A DNA stretch of 64,000 bases from Pseudomonadota bacterium (GTDB lineage: Bacteria > Pseudomonadota > Gammaproteobacteria > CALCKW01), in contig JBCCUP010000015.1 in NCBI GenBank assembly GCA_039196715.1, positions 4,292-68,291 of the forward strand. Direction: 5' to 3'. Shown one piece after another: positions 4,687-64,000 of this stretch. Position 1 is the first letter of the stretch. Each line of letters opens with the position of its first letter. The translations under genes were made by a program, and so were the position numbers. The notes under the pieces were generated by a model. The model searched no databases. It saw only the letters and a program-made list of their open reading frames with translations, and was not told the DNA's origin.

Positions 4687-4687
4687 A

Positions 4688-5497
4688 TCAGTTGTCCTGT
4701 CGCGCGCCGGCGCGACGGTTCATGATCCACAGACTGCCGAGCACCCCGACCGACACGACCGCAATCATCAGCGTCGCCAGCGCGTTGATGTCGGGGCTGA
4801 CGCCCAGGCGCACCTTGGAGAAAATCACCATCGGCAAGGTGCTCGACCCCGGCCCGGACACGAAACTCGCGATCACCAGATCGTCGAGCGACAGCGTGAA
4901 CGCGAGCAACCATCCGGACACCAGCGCCGGGGCGATGGTCGGCAGCGTGATGTCGAAAAAGACGCGCACCGGCGTCGCTCCGAGGTCGAGCGCCGCCTCT
5001 TCGGTGGAGCGGTCCATGTCCACCAGGCGCGACTGCACCACGACGGCGATGTAGGCCATGCAGAAGGTCGTGTGGGCAATGATGATGGTGGTCAGGCCGC
5101 GACCCGCCGGCCAGCCGAAAGTCAGCTCCATCGAGACGAACAACAGCAGCAGCGACAAGCCGGTGATGACTTCAGGCATGACGAGCGGCGCGGTGGTCAT
5201 GCCGTTGAACAGTGTGCGGCCGGCGAAACGGCCGAAGCGCACGAGCACCAGCGCGGCCAGCGTGCCCAACACCAGCGCCAGCGAGGCACTGATCGTGGCG
5301 ATCTTCAGGCTGACCCAGGCCGCTTGAAGAATCTGCGGGTCGCGAAACAGCTCGCCGTACCATTTGGTCGAGAAGCGGCTCCAGACGGTCACGAGGCGGG
5401 ATTCGTTGAAGCTGTAGATCACCAGCGACACGATCGGCAGGTACAGAAAGGCAAAGCCCAGCACCGCCGCACTCGACACCCACACGCTGCGCTTCAT
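4688..5497 (-). CDS. polyamine ABC transporter permease (PotI/PotC-like)
   Basis: 269-aa multi-TM ORF with an EAA-like loop (EAALDLGATP). Its start overlaps the upstream permease stop. Confidence 0.8.
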   Translation of the reverse strand: MKRSVWVSSAAVLGFAFLYLPIVSLVIYSFNESRLVTVWSRFSTKWYGELFRDPQILQAAWVSLKIATISASLALVLGTLAALVLVRFGRFAGRTLFNGMTTAPLVMPEVITGLSLLLLFVSMELTFGWPAGRGLTTIIIAHTTFCMAYIAVVVQSRLVDMDRSTEEAALDLGATPVRVFFDITLPTIAPALVSGWLLAFTLSLDDLVIASFVSGPGSSTLPMVIFSKVRLGVSPDINALATLMIAVVSVGVLGSLWIMNRRAGARQDN

Positions 5498-6387
5498 ACC
5501 TCACGCTCCGCCGCGCTCTGCGCGTTGCGCAGCAACATGATCGGCAACACCAGAATCACCAGCATGACCATCGCCACGGCCGACGCCACCGGCCAATCGC
5601 GGTTGTTGAAGAACTCGGTCCAGAGCACCTTGCCGATCATCAGGGTGTCGGCACCGCCGAGCAGCGCGGGAATCACGAATTCGCCGACAGCGGGAATGAA
5701 CACCAACAGGCAGCCCGCCAGCATGCCGGGCAGCGACAGCGGCAAGGTCACCGTCAGGAAGGTTTGCCAGGGCCGGGCACCGAGGTCTTCCGCGGCTTCG
5801 AACAGCGCGTTGTCGAGCTTCACCAGGTTGGCGTAGAGCGGCAGAACCAGGAACGGCAGGTAGGTGTAGACGATGCCGAGGTAAACGGCAAAGTCGGTCT
5901 GCAACATCGGGATAGGCTCGTCGATGAGGCCGATCCCCATGAGCATATTGTTGATGACGCCGTTCGGTTTCAGCAGACCGATCCACGCGTACACGCGCAA
6001 CAGGAAACTGGTCCAGAATGGCAGAATCACCAGCGTCAGCAGGAGGTTGCGGCGATCCGGGCGGGCGCGCGCGATGAACCAGGCCATCGGGTAACCGACC
6101 ACCAGGCAAACCAACGCCGACACCGAGGCGATGCGCAACGACTCGACAAAGGCGTTGAGGTAGAGTGTGTCCTCGATCAGGTAGCGGTAGTTGCCGATGT
6201 TGAGCGTGACGGTCAGGTAGTCCTCGTCCCATTCCCAGAGCGGCAGGTACGGCGGTCGCGCTATTGCAGCTTCGGACAGCGAAAGTTTGGCGACCACCAG
6301 AAAGGGCACGAGGAAAAAGACCAGCAACCACAGGCCCGGCACCGCCGCCACCCAGCGCCGGCCGCTGGAGCCGATCAGCCACTTCAC
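5494..6387 (-). CDS. polyamine ABC transporter permease (PotH/PotB-like)
   Basis: 297-aa multi-TM ORF with an EAAEDLGA loop, overlapping the neighbouring ABC genes. Confidence 0.8.
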   Translation of the reverse strand: MKWLIGSSGRRWVAAVPGLWLLVFFLVPFLVVAKLSLSEAAIARPPYLPLWEWDEDYLTVTLNIGNYRYLIEDTLYLNAFVESLRIASVSALVCLVVGYPMAWFIARARPDRRNLLLTLVILPFWTSFLLRVYAWIGLLKPNGVINNMLMGIGLIDEPIPMLQTDFAVYLGIVYTYLPFLVLPLYANLVKLDNALFEAAEDLGARPWQTFLTVTLPLSLPGMLAGCLLVFIPAVGEFVIPALLGGADTLMIGKVLWTEFFNNRDWPVASAVAMVMLVILVLPIMLLRNAQSAAEREV

Positions 6388-7586
6388 GAGGGCAGCACCA
6401 CACCGGCCGTGTCACCCCAGCTGAGGTAGACGGTTTCATCCCAGGACACCGGGTGCGCGTCATCGCGGTCGAGGTTGGGCTGGGTCACGTGCAGCAGCTT
6501 TCCCGACGCCAGTCGCACCCGCAACACAGACGACCCGCCCATGTAGGCGATCTCGTCGACCACCCCCTGGAGGACGTTGTGCGCTTGCGGCGGCGGCGTT
6601 GTCGACACCCGCATCTTCTCCGGCCGCAGCGCCAGCCACATGCGTTGACCCAGCGTGCAGCTCACCCCGTGGCCGACATAGACCTCGGCACCGATCTCGG
6701 CGCAATCGAGCCGCATGTGCGATTCACCGTCTTCGCTGACCACCCCCTCGAAGAGATTGACCGAGCCGATGAAGTCGGCCACGAAGCGCGAGTTCGGGTA
6801 TTCGTAGACTTCGCGCGGCGTCGCCACCTGCACGATTTCGCCGTCGCGCATGACACCGATGCGCGTGGCCAGGGTCATCGCCTCTTCCTGGTCGTGGGTC
6901 ACGACAATGAAGGTGACACCGGTTTCCTCCTGGATTTTCATCAACTCGAACTGCGTCTCTTCACGCAGCTTTTTGTCGAGCGCACCGAGTGGTTCGTCGA
7001 GCAGGAGCAGTTTCGGGCCTTTGGCGAGCGCGCGTGCGAGTGCGACCCGCTGCCGCTGGCCGCCGGAGAGTTGATCGGGCTTGCGTTTGGCAAAGTCGCC
7101 GAGCTGCACCATGTTGAGCAACTGCTCGACCCGTTGGGCGATCTCTGCCCGCGGCAGTTTGTCCCGCTTCAGGCCGTAGGCGATGTTGTCGGCCACCGTC
7201 ATGTGCGGAAACAGCGCGTAGGATTGGAACATCATGTTGACGGGCCGCCGGTAGGGCGGCACGCCTGCCATGTCCTGGCCGTCGATCTCGATGCTGCCGG
7301 CGCTCGTCGCTTCGAAGCCGGCCAACATGCGCAGCAGGGTGGACTTGCCCGAGCCGCTGCCGCCGAGCAGGCAGAACAACTCGCCGCGGTAGATGTCGAG
7401 CGACACCTTGTCGACCGCCGCAACGGCGCCGAACTGTTTGCTGACACCCTTGATGCGCAGGAAGGGTTTTGCGCCTGGATCGCGCCAGGGCTGATCGTCT
7501 GACACCGTCACGCGACGCTCCTCGGTATGACTGCCGGGCGTTGCGCCCGGCAGGGGCAGTGCGCCGCGGCTAGCGCGCCACGGCAC
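6384..7586 (-). CDS. polyamine ABC transporter ATP-binding protein (PotG/PotA-like)
   Basis: Walker A GGSGSGKST, signature LSGGQRQR, Walker B LLLLDEP, and a C-terminal TOBE-like domain. The true start may be internal (about 20-40 aa shorter). Confidence 0.85.
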   Translation of the reverse strand: MPWRASRGALPLPGATPGSHTEERRVTVSDDQPWRDPGAKPFLRIKGVSKQFGAVAAVDKVSLDIYRGELFCLLGGSGSGKSTLLRMLAGFEATSAGSIEIDGQDMAGVPPYRRPVNMMFQSYALFPHMTVADNIAYGLKRDKLPRAEIAQRVEQLLNMVQLGDFAKRKPDQLSGGQRQRVALARALAKGPKLLLLDEPLGALDKKLREETQFELMKIQEETGVTFIVVTHDQEEAMTLATRIGVMRDGEIVQVATPREVYEYPNSRFVADFIGSVNLFEGVVSEDGESHMRLDCAEIGAEVYVGHGVSCTLGQRMWLALRPEKMRVSTTPPPQAHNVLQGVVDEIAYMGGSSVLRVRLASGKLLHVTQPNLDRDDAHPVSWDETVYLSWGDTAGVVLPS

Positions 7587-7601
7587 CCGGGTGAGCGAGG
7601 C

Positions 7602-8687
7602 TCACTGGCCGGTCTTGACCTTGGTCCAGAGGCGCGTAACCGTGCGGTCCTGCCGCGCGTTGTAGACCTTCGAGGCCCAGAGGTTCTGCTTGGCGGCGTC
7701 GGTCGGGAAGATGCCCGGGTCGGAGGTGATCTCTTCGTCGACCAGCGGCATCGACGCCGCGTTGCCGTTGGCATACCAGACGTAGTTGGTGATGTCGGCC
7801 GTGATCTGTGCGTCCATGACGAAATCGATGAACTTGTGCGCCGCATCGGGGTTGGGCGCGTCAACCGGGATGGCCATGGTGTCGAACCACTGCAAAGCGC
7901 CCTCTTTCGGGATCACGTAGCTTACCGCGACGCCGTTCTCGGCTTCGTCCGCGCGGTCGCGCGCCTGGAAAATGTCACCCGACCAACCGACTGACACGCA
8001 CACATCGCCGTTGGCGAGGTCGGAGATGTATTGAGAGGAGTGGAAGTAGCGGATGTACGGGCGAACCGCCAGCAGCAGGTCGGCGCCGGCTTCGAAGTCG
8101 CGCTTCTCGGTGGAGCGCGGGTCGAGCCCGAGGTAGTTCATCGCCGCCGGCAAGAGCTCGGTGGGCGCGTCAAGCACACTGATACCGCAGTCGGCCAGCT
8201 TGGCTGCGATGGCCGGATCGAACACGAGCGACCAGCTGTCGGTCGGCGCATCCTCACCGAGGCGCTCCTGAATCATGTCGACGTTGTAGCCGATGCCGGT
8301 GGTACCCCACATGTAAATCACCGCGTGGGCGTTGTCGGCGTCATAGCCGGCCAGGCCGTCCATGAGCGCCGTGTCCATGTTCTTCAGGTTGGGCAGTTTG
8401 TTCTTGTCGAGCGGCTGGTAAGCGCCCGCAGCAATCTGACGCTGCAGGAAATCCGAGGTGGGTACAACCACGTCGTAGCCCGAATTGCCCGCCAGCATCT
8501 TCGCTTCGAGCACCTCGTTGGAATCGTACACGTCGTAGTTGACTTCGATGCCCGTGGCGGCGGTGAACTTCTCCAGCGTGTCTTCGGCGATGTAGTCGGA
8601 CCAGTTGTAGACATTGAGCGTTTCGGCGGAGGCCGCCGACGCCAACAGGGCGGTGGCAACCAGGGCGGCTGACGGGGAAAGGGTCAT
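7602..8687 (-). CDS. putrescine/spermidine-binding periplasmic protein (PotF/PotD-like)
   Basis: 361 aa with an N-terminal signal peptide (MTLSPSAALVATALLASAASA), followed by the characteristic LNVYNWSDYI. Confidence 0.85.
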   Translation of the reverse strand: MTLSPSAALVATALLASAASAETLNVYNWSDYIAEDTLEKFTAATGIEVNYDVYDSNEVLEAKMLAGNSGYDVVVPTSDFLQRQIAAGAYQPLDKNKLPNLKNMDTALMDGLAGYDADNAHAVIYMWGTTGIGYNVDMIQERLGEDAPTDSWSLVFDPAIAAKLADCGISVLDAPTELLPAAMNYLGLDPRSTEKRDFEAGADLLLAVRPYIRYFHSSQYISDLANGDVCVSVGWSGDIFQARDRADEAENGVAVSYVIPKEGALQWFDTMAIPVDAPNPDAAHKFIDFVMDAQITADITNYVWYANGNAASMPLVDEEITSDPGIFPTDAAKQNLWASKVYNARQDRTVTRLWTKVKTGQ

Positions 8688-8737
8688 GGACTCACTCCAA
8701 GGTTTTGATGTTCAACACGGGCGCAGCGGCCGGCGTT

Positions 8738-48285: not shown

Positions 48286-51018
48286 TCAACCGGGTTCGAG
48301 CGCGACCCAGTCGGGGGTGCTGACCGCGGCGCCGCCGGCCATCGCCACCCGCAGTGCACGCAATCCGGCCAGTTGCGTGGCGTCGTCGAGGTTGACCACG
48401 GACACCGCCAGGCCGTCGTCGAGGGCGCGCTGCACCGCCGTACCCCAGCGGCGCCGCTCGGCCTCCTCCGCGAGCGCGATGCCTGCCGCCGCCGCATCAA
48501 GTTGCAGGCCCGTGAGGTGCTCGCAGCGGAAATCGAGCGCCGCGTCGGAGGCCACCACGCCGCAACCCCAGCGCACCAATCGGCCCAGGTCGGCTGCGAC
48601 GGCCCGCCCCAGAGCGGACGCGGGCGCCTCGAGCACGAGCTTGTTGGCCACACCCGACACTTCGAGCCGGCGTGCCACGTCGTCGAGCGAGCTGGGGTCG
48701 GCAAACAGGGCGCCGGAGAGCACGATCTGCAAGCGCGCCAGGGCACCCAGCTCTGAGGTGTTTGCCCGCAGCCAGTCCAGGCAGCGCGCGATGGTCTCGC
48801 GGTCCGCGGCCGCCGACGCGGAAGGGTACATAGCGAGTGCCGAGGCAAAGCCAGCCAGTGGCAAGGCACCGCCGGGGTTCGGACAGAGCAACACGCGCTG
48901 GTGGTCGCCGGACAGCGGGCGCTGCAGTGGCAGAAGCAGTTCGCGTAACAGCCCCACCCGAGCCGGGACCCCAAGGTCCGAGTCCGAAGCGGCTTCGCGC
49001 TCACGCGCGCCCTGCCGCGCCGGTTCGTACAGCGCGATGCGCCCACGCCCGGCCGCCTTGGCCTCGTAGCAGGCCATATCGGCCGCCCGCATGACCTCAG
49101 CCCGGTCGCCGCTGCGGGCGGTCAGGGCCACCACGCCGACACTGGCGCCGACACGGTACGTCGCGCCCTCCCAGTCCAGCCGGTAATCCTGCGCCGCGTC
49201 ACGCAGTTGCGTCGCCAGGCGCTCAGCTCGATCGAGATCGCAGTTGTATATCAAGACACCAAACTCATCGCCCCCGAGTCGCCCGACACAGTCCGACTGC
49301 CGCAGGCACTCGACGAAACGCGCGCCGAGCGCCTGCAACACCGTGTCGCCCGCCTGGTGACCGGCATTGTCGTTTACATGCTTGAAGTGATCGAGGTCAA
49401 TGAAGCACAGGGCGTGGGACGCATCGGAGGCTTTGGCCCCGGCCAGCGCAGCTTCCAGTACGCGGTCGAATTCTCGCCGGTTGACCAGCCCGGTCAGCGC
49501 ATCGTGGGTTGCGTGGTAATGCACCTGGTCCGCCAACTCGCGATCCCGCGTGATGTCCCGGCCGACGCCACGAAAACCGTTGAAGCGGCCAGCCGAGTCG
49601 GAAATCGGGTGACAACTGTGCACGAGAATGCGTTTCTCGCCCTGCCCGCGTGTCCAGTGGTACTCGAAATCGAGCTGCGACTGGTGGGCCCGCAGCGCAG
49701 CGAGGTGGCGCACCCAGGCCGCCGAGCTCGGTTGCGGAATGTAGCGGTTGTGAAAGCCCTCGATGCTCAAGCCGATCACGTCGTCCGCCCGTATACCGAA
49801 CACCGATTCGAATCGGTCGGACAGATAGACGAAACTCAGGTTGGCATCGAGCTCGAAGAAGTAGTCGGCGGCGCTCTCGGCGAAATCGTGGAACCGCTCG
49901 CGGTCGGCCGTCAGCGAGGTGAGCCGGCGCACAACCGGAGTCTGATCACTGAGGTACACCGCAAGGCAGGTTTGACCCTGAACCGGCAGTTGCGCGGCGG
50001 TCAGCGAGAGCTCGAGCGCGAGACCGTCGCCGCGTTGCCACCGACAGTGCACGGCACGGCGCTGACCCGCGACCGCCTCGAGCCGACGCCGAATGGCGTC
50101 CGGGAAAACCAGGTGCGCGCACGCCGCCTCCGGGTTGGCAAAGCCAAGCAGCCGCGCCGCAGCGGCGCTCGCCCGCACGACACGTGCACCGGCGAGCAGC
50201 ACGACGCCGGTCGGTGCCGCGTCCAGCAGCGCACTGGCGATATCGCTGTGCGTGTCCACCGTCGGCGTCGGCACGACCGGCACCGCCGAACGCGCAGGTT
50301 GCGGCGCGGCGCGGGCAACGGCACCGGGTTGCGCAGCACTGTGCGGCAACAACCACAGGGCCGCCCGCCGGCGGTGCCACCGAATGGGCAGCCGCCAGAG
50401 CGAGAGACAGTGCCGGTCTGACTGAGCGTGCTGCGGCGGCGGCGCGACGACGCCCTCGCGGCGATTCAACCAGGCGCGCCAGCCGGAAGACTCGCGCAGG
50501 CCGCGCTCGACGTCCCGCACACCGCCGTGCCGGGCCAGCCAATCGCGCGCCCAGGCGTCGCCGTGCAGGACACGGTCCTCGGCGACGACCGCACTTCCGC
50601 CAATGTGAGACCCGACATCCTGCAGGTGAGCGCTGGCGAGGAAACCGAGCACCTCGCGTGCAGCGACCACGGCGATCTCAATGCCGTCGCCATCGCGGGT
50701 GCGCGCGTGAACCATCCAGGCGCCCGCGCGTCCGTTGGCCACCAGGGGCATGGCACTGCTGACACCGTCGTGCAGCACCAAACGCTGCGTGGCCTCCCAG
50801 AACGCGGCACGCGACGCCCGCAGCAGGTCGGTGTCACGCCGCCCGATCACGCCGGCCGGTTCGCGGGCACCGAGCAGCTCCGCGTACGCCGGACTGCACG
50901 CGCGGTAGACGAGTGCGCGGTCCTTGCTCGCGGTGATGGCTGTCGTCGGTGGCTTGAACCCAGTGTCTGTCACGTCGCCGTGCCCTGATCTCCCGGTGTC
51001 CGGCCATCGTCCCGACAC
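48286..51018 (-). CDS. PAS/PAC sensor-containing diguanylate cyclase with degenerate C-terminal EAL-like domain
   Basis: GGDEF active site RLGGDEFGVLI. Upstream are PAS segments. The C-terminal about 230 aa resemble EAL but lack the EAL/DDFGTG signatures. Confidence 0.75.
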   Translation of the reverse strand: MSGRWPDTGRSGHGDVTDTGFKPPTTAITASKDRALVYRACSPAYAELLGAREPAGVIGRRDTDLLRASRAAFWEATQRLVLHDGVSSAMPLVANGRAGAWMVHARTRDGDGIEIAVVAAREVLGFLASAHLQDVGSHIGGSAVVAEDRVLHGDAWARDWLARHGGVRDVERGLRESSGWRAWLNRREGVVAPPPQHAQSDRHCLSLWRLPIRWHRRRAALWLLPHSAAQPGAVARAAPQPARSAVPVVPTPTVDTHSDIASALLDAAPTGVVLLAGARVVRASAAAARLLGFANPEAACAHLVFPDAIRRRLEAVAGQRRAVHCRWQRGDGLALELSLTAAQLPVQGQTCLAVYLSDQTPVVRRLTSLTADRERFHDFAESAADYFFELDANLSFVYLSDRFESVFGIRADDVIGLSIEGFHNRYIPQPSSAAWVRHLAALRAHQSQLDFEYHWTRGQGEKRILVHSCHPISDSAGRFNGFRGVGRDITRDRELADQVHYHATHDALTGLVNRREFDRVLEAALAGAKASDASHALCFIDLDHFKHVNDNAGHQAGDTVLQALGARFVECLRQSDCVGRLGGDEFGVLIYNCDLDRAERLATQLRDAAQDYRLDWEGATYRVGASVGVVALTARSGDRAEVMRAADMACYEAKAAGRGRIALYEPARQGAREREAASDSDLGVPARVGLLRELLLPLQRPLSGDHQRVLLCPNPGGALPLAGFASALAMYPSASAAADRETIARCLDWLRANTSELGALARLQIVLSGALFADPSSLDDVARRLEVSGVANKLVLEAPASALGRAVAADLGRLVRWGCGVVASDAALDFRCEHLTGLQLDAAAAGIALAEEAERRRWGTAVQRALDDGLAVSVVNLDDATQLAGLRALRVAMAGGAAVSTPDWVALEPG

Positions 51019-56161: not shown

Positions 56162-56818
56162 TCAAGATGAGGTGACTTCCCCGTCACACAGCGCGTCGCC
56201 ACCCGGGTGGTGAGCGACAAACCGCAGCGCACCGTCAGGACGCTGCACGACTACGAAACGGGCACAGTTCTGCGCCTGGGGCCCGGACCAGAGGGCGGAC
56301 AACGGCAAACCCGCGGCGACGCAGTACACCGCCTTTATCAGCGCACCGTGACTGATCACCAGCACGCGTTGCCCCGGCTGAGCGGCCGCGATGGTGGACA
56401 ACGCCGAGCACCCTCGGTGTTGCAGCTCCGCCACGGTTTCGGCCCCCTCGAGCGCGAAACGCTCTGGCGCGTTGAGAAAGTGATCGAATGCCCTGGGCCA
56501 GACCCGCGTGACCTCGGTCCTGAGCTTTCGCTGCCAGGGCCCGAGGTGTATTTCACGCAGCGCATCACGGAACACCGGCTTGCAGGGTCGCCCCGCCAGC
56601 ACGCCATCGAGGGTCTGCCGGGTCCGCACGCTGGAGCTGCAGTACACCGCGTCGTAGTGCGCGATGTCGAGCTGCGTGCCCAGGGCCGCGGCCTGCGCGA
56701 GTCCGCGTGCCGACAAACGCGATTCCGCCTGTCCCTGCACACGCCCGGCCGCATTCCATTCGGTTTCACCATGGCGCACCAGGTGAAATTCGGTTTCAGG
56801 CGGGGCCTGCTCGGTCAT
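56162..56818 (-). CDS. histidine phosphatase family protein (phosphoglycerate mutase-like)
   Basis: RHG catalytic motif LVRHGETEWN and downstream His (ISHGALIKA). Confidence 0.75.
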   Translation of the reverse strand: MTEQAPPETEFHLVRHGETEWNAAGRVQGQAESRLSARGLAQAAALGTQLDIAHYDAVYCSSSVRTRQTLDGVLAGRPCKPVFRDALREIHLGPWQRKLRTEVTRVWPRAFDHFLNAPERFALEGAETVAELQHRGCSALSTIAAAQPGQRVLVISHGALIKAVYCVAAGLPLSALWSGPQAQNCARFVVVQRPDGALRFVAHHPGGDALCDGEVTSS

Positions 56819-56914
56819 CTCGGCGCACCACGGCGGGGGGTTGGTGTCACATTGTCCGGTATAATTTGCACAGGTACCAACCGGCGCACCGCGCCGCGGA
56901 TGCAGAGCAGGAGG

Positions 56915-57910
56915 ATGGCAGTGCCCGGTTCACCCGTGCCTCAACGCGATGGCCAACCCCACCGTGTCGCCGTGATACTGGTGCCCGAGTTTTCCCTGAT
57001 GGCATTCAGTTGCTCGACCGAGCCGCTGCGGTCGGCCAACCGGATGACCGGCCGCGATCTCTACGAATGGCGTGTGTTCACGCTCGACGGCGCGCCCGCC
57101 CGCAGCAGCAGTGGGATCGAAATTGCCAGCCACGGCGCACCCGACCTCGGCTGGCCGGACACGGTGTTGGTCTGCGGTGGGCTCGATCTCAACCGCAGCC
57201 TCTGTGAACCCTACCACCGCCTGATGCACCGCTTTGCCAACCGTGGTATCCGCATCGGCGGCGTGAGTACCGGCGGCTATCTGTTGGCGAGCTCGGGCCT
57301 GCTCGACGGGTACCGTTGCACTTTGCACTGGGAGTACATCGCGAGCTTCGCCGAGGATTTCCCGAACCTCGACATCACCGATCAGCTGTACGTGATCGAC
57401 CGCAACCGCATGACGAGTTCCGGTGGTACCGCCGCGATGGACATGATGCTCGCCCTGATCGCCGGCGAGCACGGCGAGGACATCGCCACCCTGGTCGCGA
57501 GCCAGTTCATTCACGAGCGTGCACGCACAGGGTCCGAGCACCAGCGCATTGCCGAGGACACGCTGAATGCGCGACAGTCACAGAAAATGGCGGACGCGAT
57601 CGCGTTGATGCGCGAAAACATGGAATCCCCGCTCACGCCGCGCGAGCTCGCCGAGCGGGTGAACCTGTCGTTGCGCCAGCTCGAGCGGCTGTTCCGAAAA
57701 TACAAGGACGATACGCCGCAACACTACTACCTGCGCCAGCGGCTCGAACAGGCCCACCGCTACATCATCCAGACCGGCATGCCGCTGATCGAGGTCGCCG
57801 TCGCCGTCGGTTTCGTGTCGCAGTCCCATTTCACCAAGTGCTACCGTGATCTCTACGGACAGACCCCGTTGCAGAACCGACGCATGCACGATCAGCAACA
57901 CCCGGGCTGA
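56915..57910 (+). CDS. GlxA-family AraC-type regulator (DJ-1/PfpI-like GATase1 domain + AraC HTH), GbdR/CdhR-like
   Basis: AGGAGG RBS then ATG. The N-terminal DJ-1/PfpI domain (VAVILVPEFSLMAF...GGVSTGGYLLA) is followed by a C-terminal AraC HTH (HFTKCYRDLYGQTP). Confidence 0.8.
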   Translation: MAVPGSPVPQRDGQPHRVAVILVPEFSLMAFSCSTEPLRSANRMTGRDLYEWRVFTLDGAPARSSSGIEIASHGAPDLGWPDTVLVCGGLDLNRSLCEPYHRLMHRFANRGIRIGGVSTGGYLLASSGLLDGYRCTLHWEYIASFAEDFPNLDITDQLYVIDRNRMTSSGGTAAMDMMLALIAGEHGEDIATLVASQFIHERARTGSEHQRIAEDTLNARQSQKMADAIALMRENMESPLTPRELAERVNLSLRQLERLFRKYKDDTPQHYYLRQRLEQAHRYIIQTGMPLIEVAVAVGFVSQSHFTKCYRDLYGQTPLQNRRMHDQQHPG

Positions 57911-57919
57911 CACCACGCC

Positions 57920-58855
57920 ATGCACATTCTCGTGAGCATGCCGACAGAGCAACGCGACCACGCCGAACGCTGGCGCACGGCGCTGATGCAACGGCTACCG
58001 TCTGCCGACATCAGCGTGTACTCGAGCGGCGAGGTGCCACGCAACGTCGACTACGTCGTCACCTGGAAACCCGATGCAGACTTGATGTCACGGCTGACCG
58101 GCTTGCGCGCTGTGTTCACCGCCAGCGCGGGGGTCGACGCCATCCTCGCACAGGCAGACCTGCCCGACTGCCCGATCGTGCGCTTGCTCGACGCCGGCAT
58201 GGGCGACCAGATGGCCGACTATGCCCTGTTCGCCGGGCTGTACCTGCAACGTGGCTTTGACCGCATGCGCGAGGCCCAGGCCGAGGCCCGTTGGGCACCG
58301 GCGCTCGGTGCCGCTCGTGACCGACCGGTGGTTGGTATCCTCGGTCTTGGCACCCTGGGCTCGGTCGTGGCTGCGCGCCTGGTCGCAAACGGCTTCCCCG
58401 TGCGCGGCTGGTCGCGCACGGCGCGGACCGTGCCGGAGTTGAGCTGTTTCCATGGCCTGGATGGTCTGGACGATTTCCTCGCCGGCACCGAGCTGCTCTT
58501 CTGTCTCCTGCCACTGACGCCGCAGACGCGGCACCTGATCGACCGCCGACGTCTCGAGGCCCTGCCACGTGGTGCGGCGGTCGTGAACGTTGCCCGTGGG
58601 CCTGTCGTCAACGAAGTGGATCTTCTGGCCGCACTCGACTCCGGGCACGTGCGTTGCGCCCTGCTCGACGTGTTCGCCACCGAGCCGCTGCCGCCGGACA
58701 ACCCGCTCTGGCAGCACCCCCGGGTCGTGATCACCCCGCACGTTGCTGCTGCCACGCTGATCGAACCCAGTGCCGACAGCGTCGTCGCGGACATGGCACG
58801 CCTTGAACGCGGCGACACACCGCGCGGCCTGGTGGACCGAGCCCGGGGTTACTGA
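57920..58855 (+). CDS. D-2-hydroxyacid dehydrogenase (glyoxylate/hydroxypyruvate reductase A-like)
   Basis: NAD-binding GILGLGTLGSVVA and a catalytic R/E/H arrangement (VNVARG...ITPHVAA). Confidence 0.8.
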   Translation: MHILVSMPTEQRDHAERWRTALMQRLPSADISVYSSGEVPRNVDYVVTWKPDADLMSRLTGLRAVFTASAGVDAILAQADLPDCPIVRLLDAGMGDQMADYALFAGLYLQRGFDRMREAQAEARWAPALGAARDRPVVGILGLGTLGSVVAARLVANGFPVRGWSRTARTVPELSCFHGLDGLDDFLAGTELLFCLLPLTPQTRHLIDRRRLEALPRGAAVVNVARGPVVNEVDLLAALDSGHVRCALLDVFATEPLPPDNPLWQHPRVVITPHVAAATLIEPSADSVVADMARLERGDTPRGLVDRARGY

Positions 58856-59319
58856 CCGGCACTGATCCGCACCCAGTGCTCAACCCGCTCGGCGTCGCTG
58901 TCGCGCAGCCGACGGCTCATTTCCCGTCCGATATTCATGTGCAACAGGGTCATCTGCTCCAGGTCCTGCTGCCACACGCGGTGCATGGTGTCGGGCCCGA
59001 TCTCCAGCGCGATGCACGGCGATTGAGCAACGGCCGTGTAGCTGCGAGGCTGCAGGTCAATGTGTGCCGCCTCGCCGTAGGAGTCACCCACGGCAATGGA
59101 TCGCAAGACATAGCACAGCGTGTCGGTCTCCCAGACCGCGAGCGCACGCCCGTGAAGCAACACAAAGAGGCTGTCACCGTCCTCGCCTTGCCGAAAGAAC
59201 GCCTGGCCGGGCGCGCGCGGCAACGCCGGCGCATGCGTCATCAGCGTGCCGAGGGTGAGCTCGGACAAGCCACCAAACACGGGCATCTGCTGCAGCGTTT
59301 CGATCGAAGGCGGGGTCAT
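58849..59319 (-). CDS. stand-alone cyclic-nucleotide-binding domain protein
   Basis: About 156 aa with cNMP-binding-fold hallmarks (FFRQGEDGDSLFVLLHGRALAV...). No DNA-binding domain. Confidence 0.55.
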   Translation of the reverse strand: MTPPSIETLQQMPVFGGLSELTLGTLMTHAPALPRAPGQAFFRQGEDGDSLFVLLHGRALAVWETDTLCYVLRSIAVGDSYGEAAHIDLQPRSYTAVAQSPCIALEIGPDTMHRVWQQDLEQMTLLHMNIGREMSRRLRDSDAERVEHWVRISAGQ

Positions 59320-59509
59320 GGTGGGCCTTGGACGGTCGCGTGAGTCACGGCGGCTGCACATCGCAGGCCACTTACGGCCGAGGACGTTTGCCACGCTGCG
59401 ACACCGATCACATTTCGGAACGTCATGTCAGCCCGTTTGAGCTGACCGGTGACCTGTGCGCTGCCCCTGATTATACAATCCGCGCACCCGCCCTCCGCGA
59501 CCAACCGCC

Positions 59510-60910
59510 ATGGCCATCAGCGTATTCGACCTGTTCAAAATCGGTATCGGACCATCAAGCTCTCACACGGTGGGCCCCATGCGCGCAGCTCATCGGTTTC
59601 TGGAGGCGCTGGACGCACGGGACCTGATCGAACGCACGGCGCGGGTGCAGACCGAGCTCTTCGGGTCGCTCGGCGCCACCGGCCGCGGTCACGGATCCGA
59701 CAAGGCCGTGATCCTGGGTCTGATGGGCGAAACCCCCGAAGACACGGATACCACCACGGTCAACACGCGGGTGCGCACGGCGCGCGAACAGCGCAGCCTC
59801 ATGCTGGCCGGGCGCCACCGCATCGCCTTCGACGACGACAGCGATCTGGTGCTCTACCGCGAAAAGTCGCTGCCGTTTCACAGCAACGGCATGCGACTGC
59901 GTGCGCTGGACGCCAGCGGTGCGGTGCTGCACGAGGCCGTCTACTACTCGGTCGGCGGCGGCTTTGTCGTCGACGAGTCTGCCGTTGCCGGCGATGACCC
60001 GTTGACCGAGGACCAGACAACCCTGCCCTACCCGTTCACCACGGCGGAGGAACTGCTCTGTCTGGCCAACGAGCACAACGTGCCGATCAGCAGCATCATG
60101 TTCGCCAACGAACGCGTTTGGCACTCGGACGAGGACATACGCGCCGGCCTGCTGCGCATCTGGGACGTGATGCAAGGCTGTGTGCAGCAGGGCATGACCA
60201 CCGAAGGCGTATTACCAGGTGGCATGAAGGTCAAGCGGCGCGCGTTCGCGCTGCACCGCAAGCTCACCTGCGAGGCCCCGGGCGAGGCCTTGCCAATCGG
60301 CGTGCTGGACTGGGTCAACCTCTACGCGCTGGCGGTGAACGAGGAAAACGCCGGTGGTGGCCGCGTCGTCACCGCGCCGACCAACGGCGCGGCGGGCATC
60401 ATCCCCGCGGTGATGCACTACTACGCCAAACACTGCCCCGGTGCGACCGAGGACGGCATCATCCGTTTCCTGCTGACCGCCGGCGCGATCGGCATTCTGT
60501 TCAAGGAGAACGCCTCGATCTCGGGCGCGGAAGTCGGTTGCCAGGGCGAGGTCGGGTCGGCTTGCTCAATGGCAGCTGGCGCGCTGACGGAAGTGCTCGG
60601 CGGCACGCCGGCACAGGTCGAAAACGCCGCTGAAATCGGTATGGAACACAACCTAGGCCTGACGTGCGACCCGATCGGCGGCCTGGTTCAGGTCCCCTGC
60701 ATCGAACGCAATGCCATGGCCTCGGTCAAGGCGATCAACGCCAGTCGCATGGCGCTGCGCGGGGACGGTACCCATTTCGTCTCGCTCGACAAGGTCATCA
60801 AGACGATGCGCGAGACCGGCATGGACATGTCCCAAAAGTACAAGGAAACCGCCCGCGGCGGCTTGGCCATCCACGTGTTGGAAGTGCCGGTGAACGTGGT
60901 CGAATGTTGA
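59510..60910 (+). CDS. sdaA: L-serine ammonia-lyase (Fe-S dependent L-serine dehydratase)
   Basis: [27 protein letters not shown]... covering the full-length alpha+beta domains, 466 aa. Confidence 0.9.
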
Positions 60911-61130
60911 GGCCTCGCACCCACGATAGCCACGAAAATGGACGGGCAAAAAGCCTGAAAACGGTCTAAACCATGCAAACCATGATGTTTGGTTCACCTG
61001 TCGACAGAGGCTTGCACTTATATGTCGCAATCCGTTACCGACCTGTCGCGAGTGAATCAGCTGCTGGCGCAGCCCAGACATAGAGTTCCGCGTTCCATAG
61101 TCCGGTGATTCACCGGCCAACCAGAGCCCA

Positions 61131-61853
<723 letters not shown>

Positions 61854-61887
61854 CGCGCGGCCTCGCCGTGGTCGGTGGAACCTTGCC

Positions 61888-62553
61888 ATGCCGTGTGACA
61901 CCGAATCCAGCCGCAAGACGCGATCCCCCGACACCCCTGTTGCCAAGACCACACTTGTCATTGCCTGTGGTGCGCTTGCGCACGAAATCACGGCCTTGCA
62001 ACGACTCGGCAACTGGCAACACATTGCCGTTCAATGCCTGCCAGCCGAGCTGCACAACCGACCCGACAAGATCCCTGAAGCGGTACGGGCCAAGATCCAG
62101 GCGGGTCGTGATCGTTTCGCGCACCTGTTTGTCGCGTATGCCGACTGCGGCACCGGCGGTCTGCTCGACAAGGTGCTGCGCGAGGAAGGCGTGGAGCGCT
62201 TGCCCGGCGACCACTGCTACGGTTTTTTCGCCGGGCAAAACGCATTCGATGCGATTAGCGAGGCCGAGCTTGGCACGTTTTACCTGACCGATTTTCTGGC
62301 GCGCCACTTCGACCGCTTGATCTGGCGGGGCATGGGGTTGGAGGCGCACCCGGAACTGTTGCCCATGATGTTCGGCAACTACACACGCCTGCTCTACCTT
62401 GCGCAGAAGCCTACGGACGACTTGCAGCACCGTGCGCAACAGGCTGCCGACAAGCTTGGCTTGCGCTACGAGTTCAAGCAAACGGGGTATGGCGAACTCG
62501 CCACAGAACTGACATCCGTCGCGGAGAAAACAATCACATGGCGAAACTTGTAA
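61888..62553 (+). CDS. DUF1638-domain protein
   Basis: About 221 aa. As far as I recall, this conserved family sits next to corrinoid/methyltransferase genes. ATG at 61888 verified. Confidence 0.6.
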   Translation: MPCDTESSRKTRSPDTPVAKTTLVIACGALAHEITALQRLGNWQHIAVQCLPAELHNRPDKIPEAVRAKIQAGRDRFAHLFVAYADCGTGGLLDKVLREEGVERLPGDHCYGFFAGQNAFDAISEAELGTFYLTDFLARHFDRLIWRGMGLEAHPELLPMMFGNYTRLLYLAQKPTDDLQHRAQQAADKLGLRYEFKQTGYGELATELTSVAEKTITWRNL

Positions 62554-62846
62554 CCATTTGGTGGCGGGACATCCCCTCACAGGTCACCGTAAAAAAAGGC
62601 CGCAAGAACGGAAAAGTCCTGTTATCCGAGCGCTTCCAGGAAGCGATAGACAGGGCCGCAATGCGTGCGGGGAAAAAGACCACCGACGAGTACCTCGAGG
62701 ACTGGCGGCGTGAAGAGAGAGAGGTCGAGGGCGAGTTGCAAGCAATCGCAGACGCCGAGGCCGCTGCACTGGAGGCTCGGTACAGTGATGACGATCTGAA
62801 ACAACTGGAGCGCCAACACGGCCACGCGCAAACCGCCGACAACTGA
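62538..62846 (+). CDS. hypothetical small charged protein (102 aa)
   Basis: Its start overlaps the DUF1638 stop by 16 nt. Lys/Glu-rich, with GC3 lower than its neighbours. No known domain. Confidence 0.35.
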   Translation: MAKLVTIWWRDIPSQVTVKKGRKNGKVLLSERFQEAIDRAAMRAGKKTTDEYLEDWRREEREVEGELQAIADAEAAALEARYSDDDLKQLERQHGHAQTADN

Positions 62847-62883
62847 CCGGTCCCGCCACAACGCCCTACAGGCAGACAAATAG

Positions 62884-63810
62884 ATGAACTCCGATATCAA
62901 CACCAGCGACATTGAGAGCACAGTCCAGGCTTTCATGCGGGACTTTACGCTCGAGACGACACCTGGGCAGGCCGCCAAGCTCGAAAGCTACCAGGGCATC
63001 CTGCGCGAGGGCACGACCGTGGCCGTGACCTTCCTGCCCGGTTCCGACTACCGCGACACGGTGAAAACCGCTGCACGCTTGCGCGCCGAAGGCTTCGAAC
63101 CCGCTCCGCACTTTGCCGCGCGATCGATCGCCAGCCGCGATGAATTCAACGACTTTGTCGCACGGTGCGCTGGCGAAGCCGGCGTCAACCACGTCGTCGC
63201 CCTGGCCGGTGGCGTGGACAACCCTGTCGGCCCCTACGACAGCTCGATGGCCATTCTCGAGACCGGTATTTTTGACAAGCATGGCATCGCGAAGGTTGGT
63301 GTGGCGGGTCATCCCGAGGGCAGCCCGGATATCAGCGATGCCCTGCTCACCGAAGCGTTGCAATGGAAGAATGCGTTGTCCGAGCGCACCGACGCAGAGC
63401 TGTATATCGCGACTCAGTTCGTGTTCGAAGCCGAACCCGTGATCGCCTGGGACAAAGCGATCCAGGCCGAGGGCAACCGACTGCCGATCCACATTGGTGT
63501 GCCGGGCCTCGCGACCATCAAGACCTTGCTGGCGCACGCCAAGGCCTGCGGCGTCGGGCCGTCCATGCGCTTTCTCACCCGACAGGCGATGAACGTCGCC
63601 AAGCTCATGACCGTCAGTGCACCGGACAAACTGGTCACAGCGCTCGCCCAGTACCAGGCGACCGACCCCGATTGCGGCATCAGCCATGTGCACATGTACC
63701 CGCTGGGCAGCTTCAAGAAAACCGCGGACTGGAGCTACGCCGTCGCCGACGGCGCGATCCGGATGAACGCGAAACGTGACGGATTCGAGGTCGATCTGCC
63801 CTCGGCTTGA
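62884..63810 (+). CDS. methylenetetrahydrofolate reductase-like protein (MetF family)
   Basis: 308 aa with a TIM-barrel MTHFR-like fold (VAVTFLPGSDYRDTV...HVVALAGGVDNP...) and high GC3. Confidence 0.75.
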   Translation: MNSDINTSDIESTVQAFMRDFTLETTPGQAAKLESYQGILREGTTVAVTFLPGSDYRDTVKTAARLRAEGFEPAPHFAARSIASRDEFNDFVARCAGEAGVNHVVALAGGVDNPVGPYDSSMAILETGIFDKHGIAKVGVAGHPEGSPDISDALLTEALQWKNALSERTDAELYIATQFVFEAEPVIAWDKAIQAEGNRLPIHIGVPGLATIKTLLAHAKACGVGPSMRFLTRQAMNVAKLMTVSAPDKLVTALAQYQATDPDCGISHVHMYPLGSFKKTADWSYAVADGAIRMNAKRDGFEVDLPSA

Positions 63811-63896
63811 GGCGGATTCAACGCGGCTTTGAGCCGCCGTCACCCCCGAGACACCTGTACAGTTGTTAGGCTGTACGCGACACAGAGCACCCCAAC

Positions 63897-64000
63897 ATGA
63901 GTGAAACAGTTCTCACATCAGCGAGCGGAAAGGAATGGGTCATGGGTTTCGACCGTCCTTTCACGATCATCGGCGAACGCATCAACCCGACTGGCCGAAA
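63897..64000 (+). CDS. methyltetrahydrofolate:corrinoid methyltransferase-like pterin-binding protein (MtgA/AcsE/MtrH-like), truncated at window end
   Basis: MSETVLTSASGKEWVMGFDRPFTIIGERINPTGR. The IIGERIN motif is characteristic of pterin-binding methyltransferases. Confidence 0.5.
   Translation, partial: MSETVLTSASGKEWVMGFDRPFTIIGERINPTGR

What the first reader, a model, noticed from the sequence alone, without database searches (positions are those of the whole stretch)
56915..64000. Corrinoid-dependent (MttB-type?) quaternary-amine demethylation module in an aerobic, high-GC gammaproteobacterial context
A B12-binding corrinoid protein, a DUF1638 protein, a small charged protein, a MetF-like methylene-THF reductase and a pterin-binding methyl-THF:corrinoid methyltransferase (cut by the window end) form one co-directional cluster. 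Immediately upstream are sdaA (serine to pyruvate), a 2-hydroxyacid dehydrogenase and a GlxA/GbdR-type AraC regulator. That regulator family controls glycine betaine and carnitine catabolism in Pseudomonas. Together these suggest non-oxidative, cobalamin-dependent demethylation of a quaternary amine (glycine betaine, proline betaine, carnitine or similar) feeding C1 units into folate and glycine/serine into pyruvate. The substrate methyltransferase (MttB-superfamily) is probably just beyond the 3' edge. Such systems are described mainly in anaerobes, with only a few reports in aerobic marine bacteria.
Basis: partly seen in the sequence, partly recalled or inferred. Interest (0 to 1): 0.8.

Follow-up and report, generated by a model that had tools for sequence, protein, structure and literature searches.

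The report
Cobalamin methyl-transfer hub (MtgC/MtgD type)
This gene cluster is a gammaproteobacterial copy of a recently described vitamin-B12-dependent system that strips methyl groups from glycine betaine and also makes methionine in aerobic marine bacteria, so it is real and coherent but not a new kind of system.

Summary
Window 56900-64000 holds a GbdR-like AraC/DJ-1 regulator, a GhrA-like 2-hydroxyacid dehydrogenase and SdaA. These are followed by a tight co-directional cluster: corrinoid protein, DUF1638, PF13769 'virulence factor', an MTHFR-like protein and a pterin-binding methyltransferase (cut). An identical Logan contig shows the next gene is a RACo/RamA-type corrinoid activase, not MttB.

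The cluster is orthologous to the MtgC/DUF1638/MetF2/MtgD/RamA module of Ruegeria, Phaeobacter and Sinorhizobium. MtgC is 82% identical to the S. meliloti protein. That module was shown genetically in 2018 and 2025 to be both the core of a split methionine synthase and the core of aerobic glycine betaine demethylation.

The predicted adjacent MttB is absent. None lies in the 64 kb window, and none lies within 1-10 kb of the cluster in five related gammaproteobacterial loci.

Two smaller points go beyond the papers read here. A GTCGC-N16-GTCGC direct repeat, of the GbdR/CdhR operator type, sits 100-155 bp upstream of mtgC in alpha- and gammaproteobacteria. PF13769 is a constant but uncharacterised companion of the module.

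Verdict: a new member of a known kind, of modest interest.

The parts
56900..57910 (+). GbdR-like GATase1/DJ-1 plus AraC-type transcription regulator. Start is at 56900 or 56915.
   Evidence: Pfam DJ-1_PfpI, HTH_18 and HTH_AraC. NCBIfam GbdR NF052371 gives 338 bits, below the 480 cutoff. Translation. Relatives 45-90% identical lie in or near the cluster in L002, L003, L005, L008, L010, L018 and L021.
57920..58855 (+). D-2-hydroxyacid dehydrogenase, GhrA-like. Candidate glyoxylate/hydroxypyruvate reductase.
   Evidence: Pfam 2-Hacid_dh_C, 155 bits. NCBIfam GhrA gives 264 bits against a cutoff of 403. Syntenic in L002, L003, L018 and L021.
58849..59394 (-). Small cyclic-nucleotide-binding domain protein with no DNA-binding domain detected. 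Role unknown.
   Evidence: Pfam cNMP_binding, 45.6 bits. Conserved at this position in L002, L003, L018 and L021.
59510..60910 (+). L-serine ammonia-lyase SdaA (serine to pyruvate plus ammonium).
   Evidence: TIGR00720 gives 701.6 bits against a cutoff of 345. SdaA is among the most induced proteins of R. pomeroyi on N-osmolytes (PMC12478193).
61024..61049 (+). Predicted operator for the GbdR-family regulator: direct repeat GTCGCAATCCGTTACCGACCTGTCGC (TGTCGC hexamers with a 15-bp spacer), 113 bp upstream of the mtgC ATG.
   Evidence: Invariant in an alignment of four relatives. Exact copies lie 106-155 bp upstream of mtgC in L002, L003, L018, L021, L005, L006 and L007. One-mismatch copies lie at the same place in L004, L008 and L010. 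It matches the reported GGTCGC half-site with a 15-bp spacer of CdhR, which that paper describes as very similar to the GbdR, SouR and ArgR sites (PMC5806209). The pattern is not enriched in the window as a whole, so the evidence is position and conservation.
61137..61853 (+). MtgC-type corrinoid protein: B12 cap plus Rossmann B12-binding domain, with the His-on DxHxxG motif.
   Evidence: Pfam PF02607 and PF02310. 81.6% identical to the S. meliloti protein that sits between MttB and DUF1638. NCBIfam anaerobic MtgC gives 213 bits against 370, and MetH 151 against 1011. Best PDB matches are stand-alone corrinoid proteins ahead of MetH. DxHxxG is at residue 123.
61888..62553 (+). DUF1638 protein, an accessory factor genetically linked to B12 reactivation.
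   Evidence: Pfam PF07796, 100.6 bits. 46% identical to the S. meliloti DUF1638 protein. The P. inhibens DUF1638 mutant is a methionine auxotroph and the family co-occurs with the RamA-like protein (PMC5764234). Induced on N-osmolytes in R. pomeroyi.
62538..62846 (+). PF13769 'Virulence_fact' protein: 102 aa, no cysteine, function unknown.
62884..63810 (+). MetF2-type MTHFR-like flavoprotein. Predicted to oxidise methyl-THF to methylene-THF.
   Evidence: Best PDB match is 7xg9, Sphingobium SYK-6 MTHFR: E 1.7e-58, 36% identity. That enzyme oxidises CH3-THF and hardly uses NADH (PMC11868366). The Leu-Pro of the TFLPG motif, Cys219 and Pro268 equivalents are conserved. Phe269 is Leu, Phe215 is His, and Asp107 is Gly with an Asp two residues later.
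63897..64000 (+). MtgD-type methyl-THF:corrinoid methyltransferase (pterin-binding), cut by the window end after 34 codons.
   Evidence: The full 302-aa protein comes from the 100% identical contig L001. NF005719 gives 365 bits against a cutoff of 259. 64% identical to the S. meliloti 'methyltetrahydrofolate cobalamin methyltransferase'. In L001 a RACo/RamA-type activase follows after 90 bp. The full-length orthologue in L003 is 691 aa and scores 406 bits on AcsV.

Best explanation
The cluster encodes the shared core of an aerobic, cobalamin-dependent methyl-transfer system of the MtgBCD(E) type.

Proposed mechanism:
- MtgC carries cobalamin.
- MtgD moves a methyl group between methyl-Co(III)-MtgC and tetrahydrofolate, in either direction.
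- The RACo/RamA-type activase, whose gene starts 90 bp after mtgD just beyond the window, and DUF1638 return oxidised Co(II) to active Co(I).
- MetF2, an S6MTHFR-like flavoprotein, oxidises the resulting methyl-THF to methylene-THF.
- Methylene-THF is either oxidised further or condensed with glycine to give serine. SdaA converts serine to pyruvate plus ammonium, and the GhrA-like reductase serves the hydroxypyruvate/glyoxylate branch.
- A GbdR-family activator, encoded four genes upstream, binds the conserved GTCGC-N16-GTCGC repeat in front of mtgC and switches the operon on in response to a betaine-type osmolyte.
- The substrate-specific methyltransferase (MtgB, an MttB-superfamily protein) is not part of this locus and must be encoded elsewhere.
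- The same MtgC/MtgD pair probably also runs in reverse with a homocysteine-binding MtgE to make methionine.

Shown here: gene content, order, orthology, the conserved operator, and the absence of MttB and MtgE from the window.

Inferred from the Ruegeria and Phaeobacter genetics: the direction of methyl flow, the substrate and the dual role.
For: - Domain content.
- Extension of the locus by the identical contig.
- Orthology to the S. meliloti cluster, which has the same order MttB / MtgC / DUF1638 / ... / virulence factor / MTHFR / MtgD / ASKHA. Identities are MtgC 82%, MtgD 64%, RACo 60% and DUF1638 46%.
- Genetics and proteomics in R. pomeroyi: mtgC and mtgD knockouts lose both growth on glycine betaine and methionine prototrophy. 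MetF2, SdaA, RamA and DUF1638 are induced on N-osmolytes (PMC12478193).
- The split methionine synthase of P. inhibens (PMC5764234).
- The closest characterised relative of MetF2 is an MTHFR that runs in the oxidative direction.
- The operator is conserved upstream of mtgC in 11 of 14 loci across two classes. It is present in all 8 loci that carry a GbdR-like gene.
- The Kiloniellaceae locus L005 combines the same module with an MttB gene, a GbdR-like regulator and sarcosine oxidase genes.
- The relative L021 adds formate-THF ligase on one side and a DmdA-like demethylase on the other.
Against: - No MttB-family gene lies in the 64 kb window or within 1-10 kb of mtgC in any of the related gammaproteobacterial loci L003, L018, L019, L020 and L021.
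- Whether this genome has an MtgB at all could not be tested. A search with the L005 MttB returned gammaproteobacterial orthologues (Oceanospirillaceae, Competibacteraceae) but none labelled Granulosicoccus.
- The regulator scores below the GbdR equivalog cutoff, so its ligand is unknown.
- MetF2 lacks some residues highlighted for S6MTHFR, including the Asp107 position.
- There are no experimental data for this lineage.
Confidence: 0.6

Rival explanations
1. In this lineage the module is only a split, cobalamin-dependent methionine synthase core (MtgC, MtgD, activase and DUF1638, with MtgE elsewhere). MetF2 next to it disposes of methyl-THF made by THF-dependent demethylases such as DmdA. No corrinoid-dependent amine demethylation takes place.
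For: - No MttB gene lies near the cluster in six gammaproteobacterial loci.
- A DmdA-like gene (373 bits against a cutoff of 410) directly follows RACo in L021.
- S6MTHFR-type enzymes are reported to pair with THF-dependent demethylases.
- In L011, L015 and L016 the MetF2 homologue sits next to an MtgE/Bhmt-like gene.
Against: - A biosynthetic methionine synthase would not be expected under a GbdR-type operator or beside SdaA.
- MtgE is also absent from the window.
- In R. pomeroyi the scattered mtgB genes are likewise not adjacent to mtgC, yet they work with it.
Confidence: 0.2
2. The module is catabolic, but the physiological methyl donor is not glycine betaine. It is another methylated compound (proline betaine, carnitine, gamma-butyrobetaine, choline derivatives, trimethylamine or a methylated sulfur compound), delivered by one or several MttB-superfamily or other methyltransferases encoded elsewhere.
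For: - MttB paralogues are substrate-specific. Up to seven occur per genome alongside a single MtgC (PMC12478193 Discussion).
- The two MttB proteins seen near mtgC, in L005 and S. meliloti, are only 30% identical to each other.
- The regulator is below the GbdR cutoff, and GbdR relatives sense other amines, for example CdhR with carnitine.
Against: - Glycine betaine is the only substrate shown for this aerobic system so far.
- L005 links the module to sarcosine oxidase genes and L020 to an OpuAC betaine-binding protein.
- This reading overlaps with the best explanation rather than excluding it.
Confidence: 0.15
3. The locus is a cmu-like methyl halide (chloromethane) pathway, or the B12-binding protein is a light or B12 sensor of the CarH type.
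For: - The cmu pathway also combines a corrinoid methyltransferase, a methylcobalamin:THF methyltransferase and an S6MTHFR-type MetF2.
- MtgC is reported to be phylogenetically close to the CmuA corrinoid domain.
Against: - The corrinoid protein is a stand-alone 238-aa protein with no fused methyltransferase domain.
- CarH scores 31 bits against a cutoff of 400, and there is no MerR-type DNA-binding domain.
- The whole operon is orthologous to the Mtg module.
Confidence: 0.02

Closest known systems
MtgBCD(E) of Ruegeria pomeroyi DSS-3 (SPO2160 MtgC, SPO1863 MtgD, SPO1862 MetF2, SPO2041 RamA, SPO2162 DUF1638; Mausz et al. 2025, PMC12478193) and the split methionine synthase of Phaeobacter inhibens (Price et al. 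2018, PMC5764234)
   Same: - Same protein set: stand-alone corrinoid protein, pterin-binding methyltransferase, MetF-like protein, RamA/RACo activase and DUF1638.
- As in R. pomeroyi, the MttB-family and homocysteine-binding partners are not adjacent.
- SdaA belongs to the same physiological response.
   Different: - In the window the parts form one compact operon, with SdaA, a GhrA-like reductase and a GbdR-like regulator alongside. In the two roseobacters they are scattered.
- Direct sequence comparison with the R. pomeroyi proteins was not possible. Orthology rests on S. meliloti and other alphaproteobacterial homologues, plus a 19/20 match of a published mtgC primer to window 61176-61195.
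- The lineage is Granulosicoccaceae-like, not one of the gammaproteobacterial groups named in the paper (SUP05).
Sinorhizobium meliloti mtg cluster (CP090106.1; locus L017)
   Same: Same order: corrinoid protein, DUF1638, 'virulence factor', MTHFR, methyl-THF:cobalamin methyltransferase, ASKHA (RACo) protein. Identities run from 46% to 82%.
   Different: - S. meliloti has the MttB-family gene directly beside mtgC and bmt (MtgE) nearby. The window has neither.
- S. meliloti uses a MetV-plus-MetF type MTHFR, as does Granulosicoccus locus L019. The window uses an S6MTHFR-like single-subunit protein.
- S. meliloti lacks the GTCGC-N16-GTCGC site upstream of mtgC.
Anaerobic glycine betaine methyltransferase system MtgB/MtgC/MtgA of Desulfitobacterium hafniense, and the quaternary-amine systems of Eubacterium limosum
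   Same: Same three-component logic: substrate methyltransferase, then corrinoid protein, then methyl-corrinoid:THF methyltransferase, with a RamA-type activase.
   Different: - The window corrinoid protein falls below both NCBIfam MtgC cutoffs (213 against 370, and 177 against 310).
- It belongs to a separate clade according to PMC12478193.
- The host is an aerobe.
- Methyl-THF is oxidised by a MetF2 rather than entering the Wood-Ljungdahl pathway.
Type 4 MTHFR (S6MTHFR of Sphingobium lignivorans SYK-6, PDB 7xg9; Yu et al. 2025, PMC11868366)
   Same: It is the best structural-database relative of the window MTHFR-like protein (201 bits, 36% identity). The Leu-Pro that blocks NADH binding, Cys219 and Pro268 are conserved. 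Like S6MTHFR, it sits next to a system that makes methyl-THF.
   Different: Phe269 is Leu, Phe215 is His, Arg78 is Ser, and the catalytic Asp107 position is Gly with an Asp two residues later. Activity and direction are untested.
GbdR / CdhR / SouR regulators of Pseudomonas aeruginosa
   Same: Same GATase1-like plus AraC architecture. The operator has the same design, direct GTCGC-containing half-sites with a 15-bp spacer placed upstream of the promoter.
   Different: 338 bits against the 480-bit GbdR cutoff, so it is a family member rather than an equivalog. Its target is a cobalamin-dependent operon, not the GbcAB oxygenase pathway.

Membership tests
Aerobic MtgBCD(E) methyltransferase / split methionine synthase | Stand-alone corrinoid protein (B12 cap plus B12-binding domain) of the MtgC clade | tested here: met
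   Pfam PF02607 and PF02310. DxHxxG present. 81.6% identity to the S. meliloti cluster protein and 76-83% to other alphaproteobacterial homologues on plasmids and chromids.
Aerobic MtgBCD(E) methyltransferase / split methionine synthase | Separate pterin-binding methyl-THF:corrinoid methyltransferase (MtgD) | tested here: met
   NF005719 gives 365 bits against a cutoff of 259. 64% identity to the S. meliloti protein. Only 34 codons lie inside the window; the rest comes from the identical contig L001.
Aerobic MtgBCD(E) methyltransferase / split methionine synthase | RamA/RACo-type reductive activase and a DUF1638 protein | tested here: met
   DUF1638 scores 100.6 bits. The activase N-terminus is in L001. 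The full-length orthologues in L003, L019 and L021 carry Fer2 and RACo domains.
Aerobic MtgBCD(E) methyltransferase / split methionine synthase | MttB-superfamily (PF06253) substrate methyltransferase MtgB in the genome | tested here: inconclusive
   Absent from the window and from about 10 kb around mtgC in related gammaproteobacterial loci. The rest of the genome could not be reached.
Aerobic MtgBCD(E) methyltransferase / split methionine synthase | Homocysteine-binding MtgE (PF02574), or absence of MetH | tested here: inconclusive
   tblastn with S. meliloti Bmt/MtgE finds no match in the window. No MetH or MetE appears among the annotated window genes. The genome-wide answer is not available.
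Aerobic MtgBCD(E) methyltransferase / split methionine synthase | Requirement for growth on glycine betaine and for methionine prototrophy | not testable with these tools
   Needs genetics in a cultured relative, for example Granulosicoccus.
Anaerobic MtgC (NCBIfam NF047996 / NF047995) | Score at or above the curated cutoff | tested here: not met
   212.7 bits against a cutoff of 370, and 176.9 against 310.
Classical methionine synthase MetH | Single chain with homocysteine, pterin, B12 and AdoMet-activation modules | tested here: not met
   The corrinoid protein is 238 aa and scores 151 bits on TIGR02082 against a cutoff of 1011. MtgD scores 125 bits. No PF02574 or activation domain is present in the cluster.
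Type 4 (S6MTHFR-type) MTHFR | Conserved motifs in loop beta2-alpha3 (Leu48-Pro49), helix alpha8 (Phe215, Cys219) and loop beta8-alpha11 (Pro268-Phe269), plus the catalytic Glu21, Asp107 and Gln175 | tested here: inconclusive
   From the alignment to 7xg9. Conserved: Glu, Gln, Leu-Pro, Cys219 and Pro268. Changed: Phe215 to His, Phe269 to Leu, and Asp107 to Gly with an Asp two residues later. The same pattern holds across the clade.
Pseudomonas GbdR (NF052371) | Equivalog score, and GTCGC-type direct-repeat operator | tested here: inconclusive
   338 bits against a cutoff of 480, so not an equivalog. An operator of the family's design is present and conserved upstream of mtgC. Binding is not testable here.

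The most novel reading that the evidence does not exclude
In Granulosicoccaceae-like gammaproteobacteria the MtgC/MtgD hub may have no MttB partner at all. It would then work as a GbdR-controlled switch point for methyl-THF: towards methionine through MtgC, or towards oxidation through MetF2. The methyl-THF would be supplied by THF-dependent demethylases such as DmdA, or by an unrecognised first methyltransferase. In this reading the ubiquitous PF13769 protein, which has a confidently predicted fold with no PDB relative, is a so far unnoticed functional subunit of the module.
Probability: 0.15. Interest if true: 0.55.

Novelty: new member of a known kind. Interest (0 to 1): 0.3.

Why it matters
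The finding extends a recently recognised, ocean-relevant route of osmolyte demethylation and methionine synthesis to a Granulosicoccaceae-like lineage. Members of that family are common on kelp and in coastal waters (from my own knowledge, not checked here).

The whole pathway context sits in one operon here: regulator, methyl-THF oxidation and serine deamination. That makes it a convenient locus for studying regulation.

Two by-products are directly testable. One is a GbdR-type operator conserved in front of mtgC across two proteobacterial classes. The other is the constant presence of the uncharacterised PF13769 protein. Both could refine the published model. Neither changes the basic picture.

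Tried and rejected
1. Recovering the source contig. The 100% identical NCBI proteins P0001 and P0121 come from a 72,677-bp MAG contig, but it is not in the position index. Only a 3.6-kb Logan contig, L001, extends the window.

2. MttB in the window. tblastn with the Kiloniellaceae and S. meliloti MttB proteins gave only noise. Pfam scans of all large window ORFs found none.

3. MttB in the Granulosicoccaceae. The last large protein search, with the L005 MttB, returned no hit labelled Granulosicoccus. This is inconclusive, because only the best 120 hits are listed and most are unnamed.

4. Cobalamin riboswitch or other known RNA in 56-64 kb: none. The promoter and terminator consensus scans were uninformative.

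5. Function of PF13769.
- phmmer against PDB found nothing below E 0.07.
- A search of 1.84 billion representatives showed almost only stand-alone proteins of about 100 aa.
- The ten longest hits carry no second Pfam domain, so there is no Rosetta-stone clue.

6. DUF1638 and TM0269. I recalled a possible link to the Thermotoga MetH reactivation protein TM0269. The paper is not held, and DUF1638 has no PDB match. I therefore dropped the claim.

7. The GTCGC-N16-GTCGC pattern is not enriched in the window overall. No second copy was seen in front of sdaA or the regulator gene.

8. CarH-type photoreceptor, MetH fragment and cmu readings were rejected on domain content.

Full report
**What is in the sequence**

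High GC content (61-71%) produces many shadow ORFs. Third-position GC and profile searches pick out one gene per stretch.

From 56900 to 64000 the plus strand carries, in order:
- a DJ-1/PfpI plus AraC regulator, closest to Pseudomonas GbdR (338 bits, cutoff 480);
- a GhrA-like D-2-hydroxyacid dehydrogenase;
- SdaA;
- a corrinoid protein;
- a DUF1638 protein;
- a 102-aa PF13769 'Virulence_fact' protein;
- an MTHFR-like protein;
- the first 34 codons of a pterin-binding protein.

The minus strand carries a small cNMP-binding protein, between the dehydrogenase and sdaA.

The five genes from the corrinoid protein onwards are separated by -16 to +86 bp.

**What lies beyond the window**

A 3.6-kb Logan contig (L001) is identical over the last 2.4 kb of the window. 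It completes the pterin-binding gene: 302 aa, and NF005719 scores 365 bits against a cutoff of 259. It also shows that the next gene, 90 bp on, begins with a plant-type 2Fe-2S ferredoxin domain.

In the closest genomes the full-length orthologue is a 670-690-aa RACo/AcsV/RamA-type reductive activase of corrinoid proteins. These genomes are Granulosicoccaceae MAGs. Their proteins from the aminotransferase to MtgD are mostly 69-95% identical to the window's, with three flanking genes at 49-62%, and they are fully syntenic from the upstream aminotransferase onwards.

In L003 the cluster ends after this gene. What follows is about 500 bp of repeat-rich non-coding DNA, what reads as a tRNA gene and a csrA-like gene on the other strand (read from the sequence only).

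**The predicted MttB is not there**

- tblastn with an MttB from a Kiloniellaceae relative (Pfam MTTB 368 bits) and with the S. meliloti MttB finds nothing in the 64-kb window.
- Pfam scans of the other large window ORFs show housekeeping genes, a polyamine/agmatine utilisation cluster and a glutaryl-CoA-type module. They show no MttB, MetH, MetE or Bhmt/MtgE.
- Loci L003, L019, L020 and L021 hold 1-6 kb of sequence beyond the activase. None has a PF06253 gene within the fetched flanks. L018 ends inside the activase.
- Of the 15 loci found through the MTHFR-like protein, only L005 has an MttB nearby, 4 kb upstream on the other strand.

**What the module is**

The literature search turned up two directly relevant papers.

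Price et al. 2018 (PMC5764234) showed by transposon fitness that Phaeobacter inhibens makes methionine with a three-piece synthase. The pieces are a PF02574 protein, a pterin-binding protein and a stand-alone corrinoid protein. A RamA-like protein and a DUF1638 protein are also required.

Mausz et al. 2025 (PMC12478193) showed the following in Ruegeria pomeroyi:
- The corrinoid protein (MtgC) and the pterin-binding protein (MtgD) are needed both for methionine synthesis and for glycine betaine demethylation.
- Two PF06253 proteins (MtgB), MetF2, RamA, DUF1638, SdaA and serine-cycle enzymes are induced on N-osmolytes.
- mtgC occurs in marine Alpha-, Gamma- and Deltaproteobacteria.

The S. meliloti cluster that this paper describes was retrieved with its annotation. 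It has the order MttB, corrinoid protein, DUF1638..., virulence factor, MTHFR, methyl-THF:cobalamin methyltransferase, ASKHA protein. Identities to the window proteins are 82% (MtgC), 46% (DUF1638), 57% (PF13769 N-terminal half), 64% (MtgD) and 60% (activase, via L003).

A published R. pomeroyi mtgC primer matches window 61176-61195 at 19 of 20 bases. This is a small direct link to SPO2160.

The corrinoid protein falls below the cutoffs for the anaerobic MtgC models and far below MetH. Its best PDB relatives are stand-alone methylotrophic corrinoid proteins rather than MetH. Both results agree with the separate clade reported in 2025.

**The MTHFR-like protein**

It barely matches Pfam MTHFR (30.8 bits) but matches PDB 7xg9 at E 1.7e-58 (36% identity). 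7xg9 is the Sphingobium SYK-6 enzyme. Yu et al. 2025 (PMC11868366) showed that it oxidises methyl-THF, hardly reacts with NADH, and typifies a 'type 4' MTHFR family that accompanies systems producing methyl-THF, including CmuAB.

The window protein keeps the Leu-Pro of TFLPG, Cys219, Pro268 and the catalytic Glu and Gln. It differs at Phe215, Phe269 and Arg78. It has Gly where Asp107 lies, with an Asp two residues later. This pattern is shared by its whole clade. I therefore treat it as MetF2-like and probably oxidative, but not as a proven type 4 member.

The Granulosicoccus locus L019 and S. meliloti use a MetV (DUF5981) plus MetF pair at the same position. The MTHFR slot has thus been filled by two different enzyme types, while PF13769 stays.

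**Regulation**

Aligning the 220-bp sdaA-mtgC spacer of four relatives shows an invariant block, ATGTCGCAnTnnGTTnCCnAnnnGTCGC. This is two TGTCGC hexamers 15 bp apart, at window 61024-61049.

CdhR of P. aeruginosa binds direct GGTCGC half-sites with a 15-bp spacer. That site is described as very similar to those of GbdR, SouR and ArgR (PMC5806209).

The bare pattern occurs about 1.4 times per window by chance, so its presence alone means little. Position and conservation carry the weight:
- Exact copies lie 106-155 bp upstream of mtgC in the window, L002, L003, L018, L021, L005, L006 and L007.
- One-mismatch copies lie at the same place in L004, L008 and L010.
- Every one of the 8 loci with a GbdR-like gene in the fetched span has the site.
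- S. meliloti and L019, which have no full-length GbdR-like match to the window regulator in the fetched span, lack it. L019 does have a DJ-1/AraC gene cut by the locus end.

These loci represent at least five separate lineages in two classes.

A conserved CATAGAGTT about 30 bp downstream would fit a -10 element, which would place the site just upstream of the -35. That is inference.

No cobalamin riboswitch is present.

**How it most likely works**

This is given in the best explanation. A GbdR-family activator turns on mtgC-DUF1638-PF13769-metF2-mtgD-activase. MtgC and MtgD shuttle methyl groups between a substrate methyltransferase encoded elsewhere and THF. MetF2 pulls methyl-THF towards methylene-THF. 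SdaA and the GhrA-like enzyme handle the serine and hydroxypyruvate produced from glycine plus C1. The same MtgC/MtgD pair can run in reverse for methionine synthesis.

Context in relatives supports a C1-catabolic setting. L021 has formate-THF ligase and a DmdA-like gene. L020 has an OpuAC gene. L005 has sarcosine oxidase and MttB genes.

The main rival is that this lineage has no MtgB, so the module serves only methionine synthesis and disposal of methyl-THF. It cannot be excluded without the genome.

**The PF13769 protein**

**Verdict**

The cluster is real, coherent and correctly read as a cobalamin-dependent methyl-transfer module linked to betaine-type regulation. It is an orthologue of a system already characterised genetically. 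The predicted adjacent MttB is absent, and the methionine-synthase role was overlooked.

I rate it a new member of a known kind, with interest 0.3. The residual value lies in the conserved operator, the unexplained PF13769 component and the open question of the methyl donor in this lineage.

Noticed in passing
window 62538-62846 (+); also L002-L021: The PF13769 'Virulence_fact' protein is a constant companion of mtgC/MTHFR/mtgD clusters in alpha-, beta- and gammaproteobacteria, whichever MTHFR type is present. Its predicted fold is confident (pLDDT 91.6) and has no PDB relative. There are no informative domain fusions. It is not discussed in the 2025 paper that defined the system.
   Followed up: yes
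window 62884-63810 versus L019 11820-13402 and L017 18195-19870: The MTHFR slot of the module is filled by two non-orthologous solutions, even within the Granulosicoccaceae. The window has a single S6MTHFR-like protein. L019 and S. meliloti have a MetV (DUF5981) plus MetF pair. The S6MTHFR-like clade has Gly at the position of the catalytic Asp107, usually with an Asp two residues later. L011 has no Asp there at all.
   Followed up: partly
window 61088-61112 (+): A short conserved hairpin-like element (CCGG, a 6-10 nt loop, CCGG, then CCAAC) lies just upstream of the mtgC ribosome-binding region in all four close relatives aligned. A conserved CATAGAGTT lies about 10 bp before it. No Rfam match.
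   Followed up: no
window 56162-56818 (-): A histidine phosphatase family gene is divergent from the regulator. Its best NCBIfam hit is alpha-ribazole phosphatase CobC (109 bits, cutoff 163), followed by phosphoserine phosphatase PspA. It is syntenic in L002, L003 and L021 but missing in the 97% relative L018. This hints at a possible B12-salvage or serine link.
   Followed up: no
L021 3808-5484 (-) and 16252-17403 (+): In a relative whose MtgC is 91% identical, formate-THF ligase lies upstream of the regulator. A DmdA-like GcvT-family demethylase (373 bits, cutoff 410) directly follows the activase. This suggests the locus collects several routes into and out of methyl-THF.
   Followed up: partly
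window 896-8711 (-): A polyamine/agmatine utilisation block: class III aminotransferase, glutamine-synthetase-like (PuuA-type) protein, arginase-family enzyme and a PotABCD-like ABC transporter. It is unrelated to the finding.
   Followed up: partly
window 48286-51018 (-): A large PAS/GGDEF/EAL-type signalling protein of 910 aa. The domains were inferred from the orthologue called in L018. It lies upstream of the DAHP synthase gene.
   Followed up: no
MtgC: window 61137-61853 versus plasmid and chromid hits H1-H15: The corrinoid protein is unusually conserved across classes. It is 76-83% identical between this gammaproteobacterium and Rhizobiales, Rhodobacterales and a betaproteobacterium (Azoarcus). 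The neighbouring DUF1638 is only about 46-57% identical. This points to either strong constraint from many protein partners or lateral transfer.
   Followed up: no
L003 14080-14560: Two copies of a roughly 240-bp repeat-like non-coding element lie between the activase gene and the apparent tRNA gene in the Granulosicoccaceae relative. This was seen by eye in the sequence.
   Followed up: no
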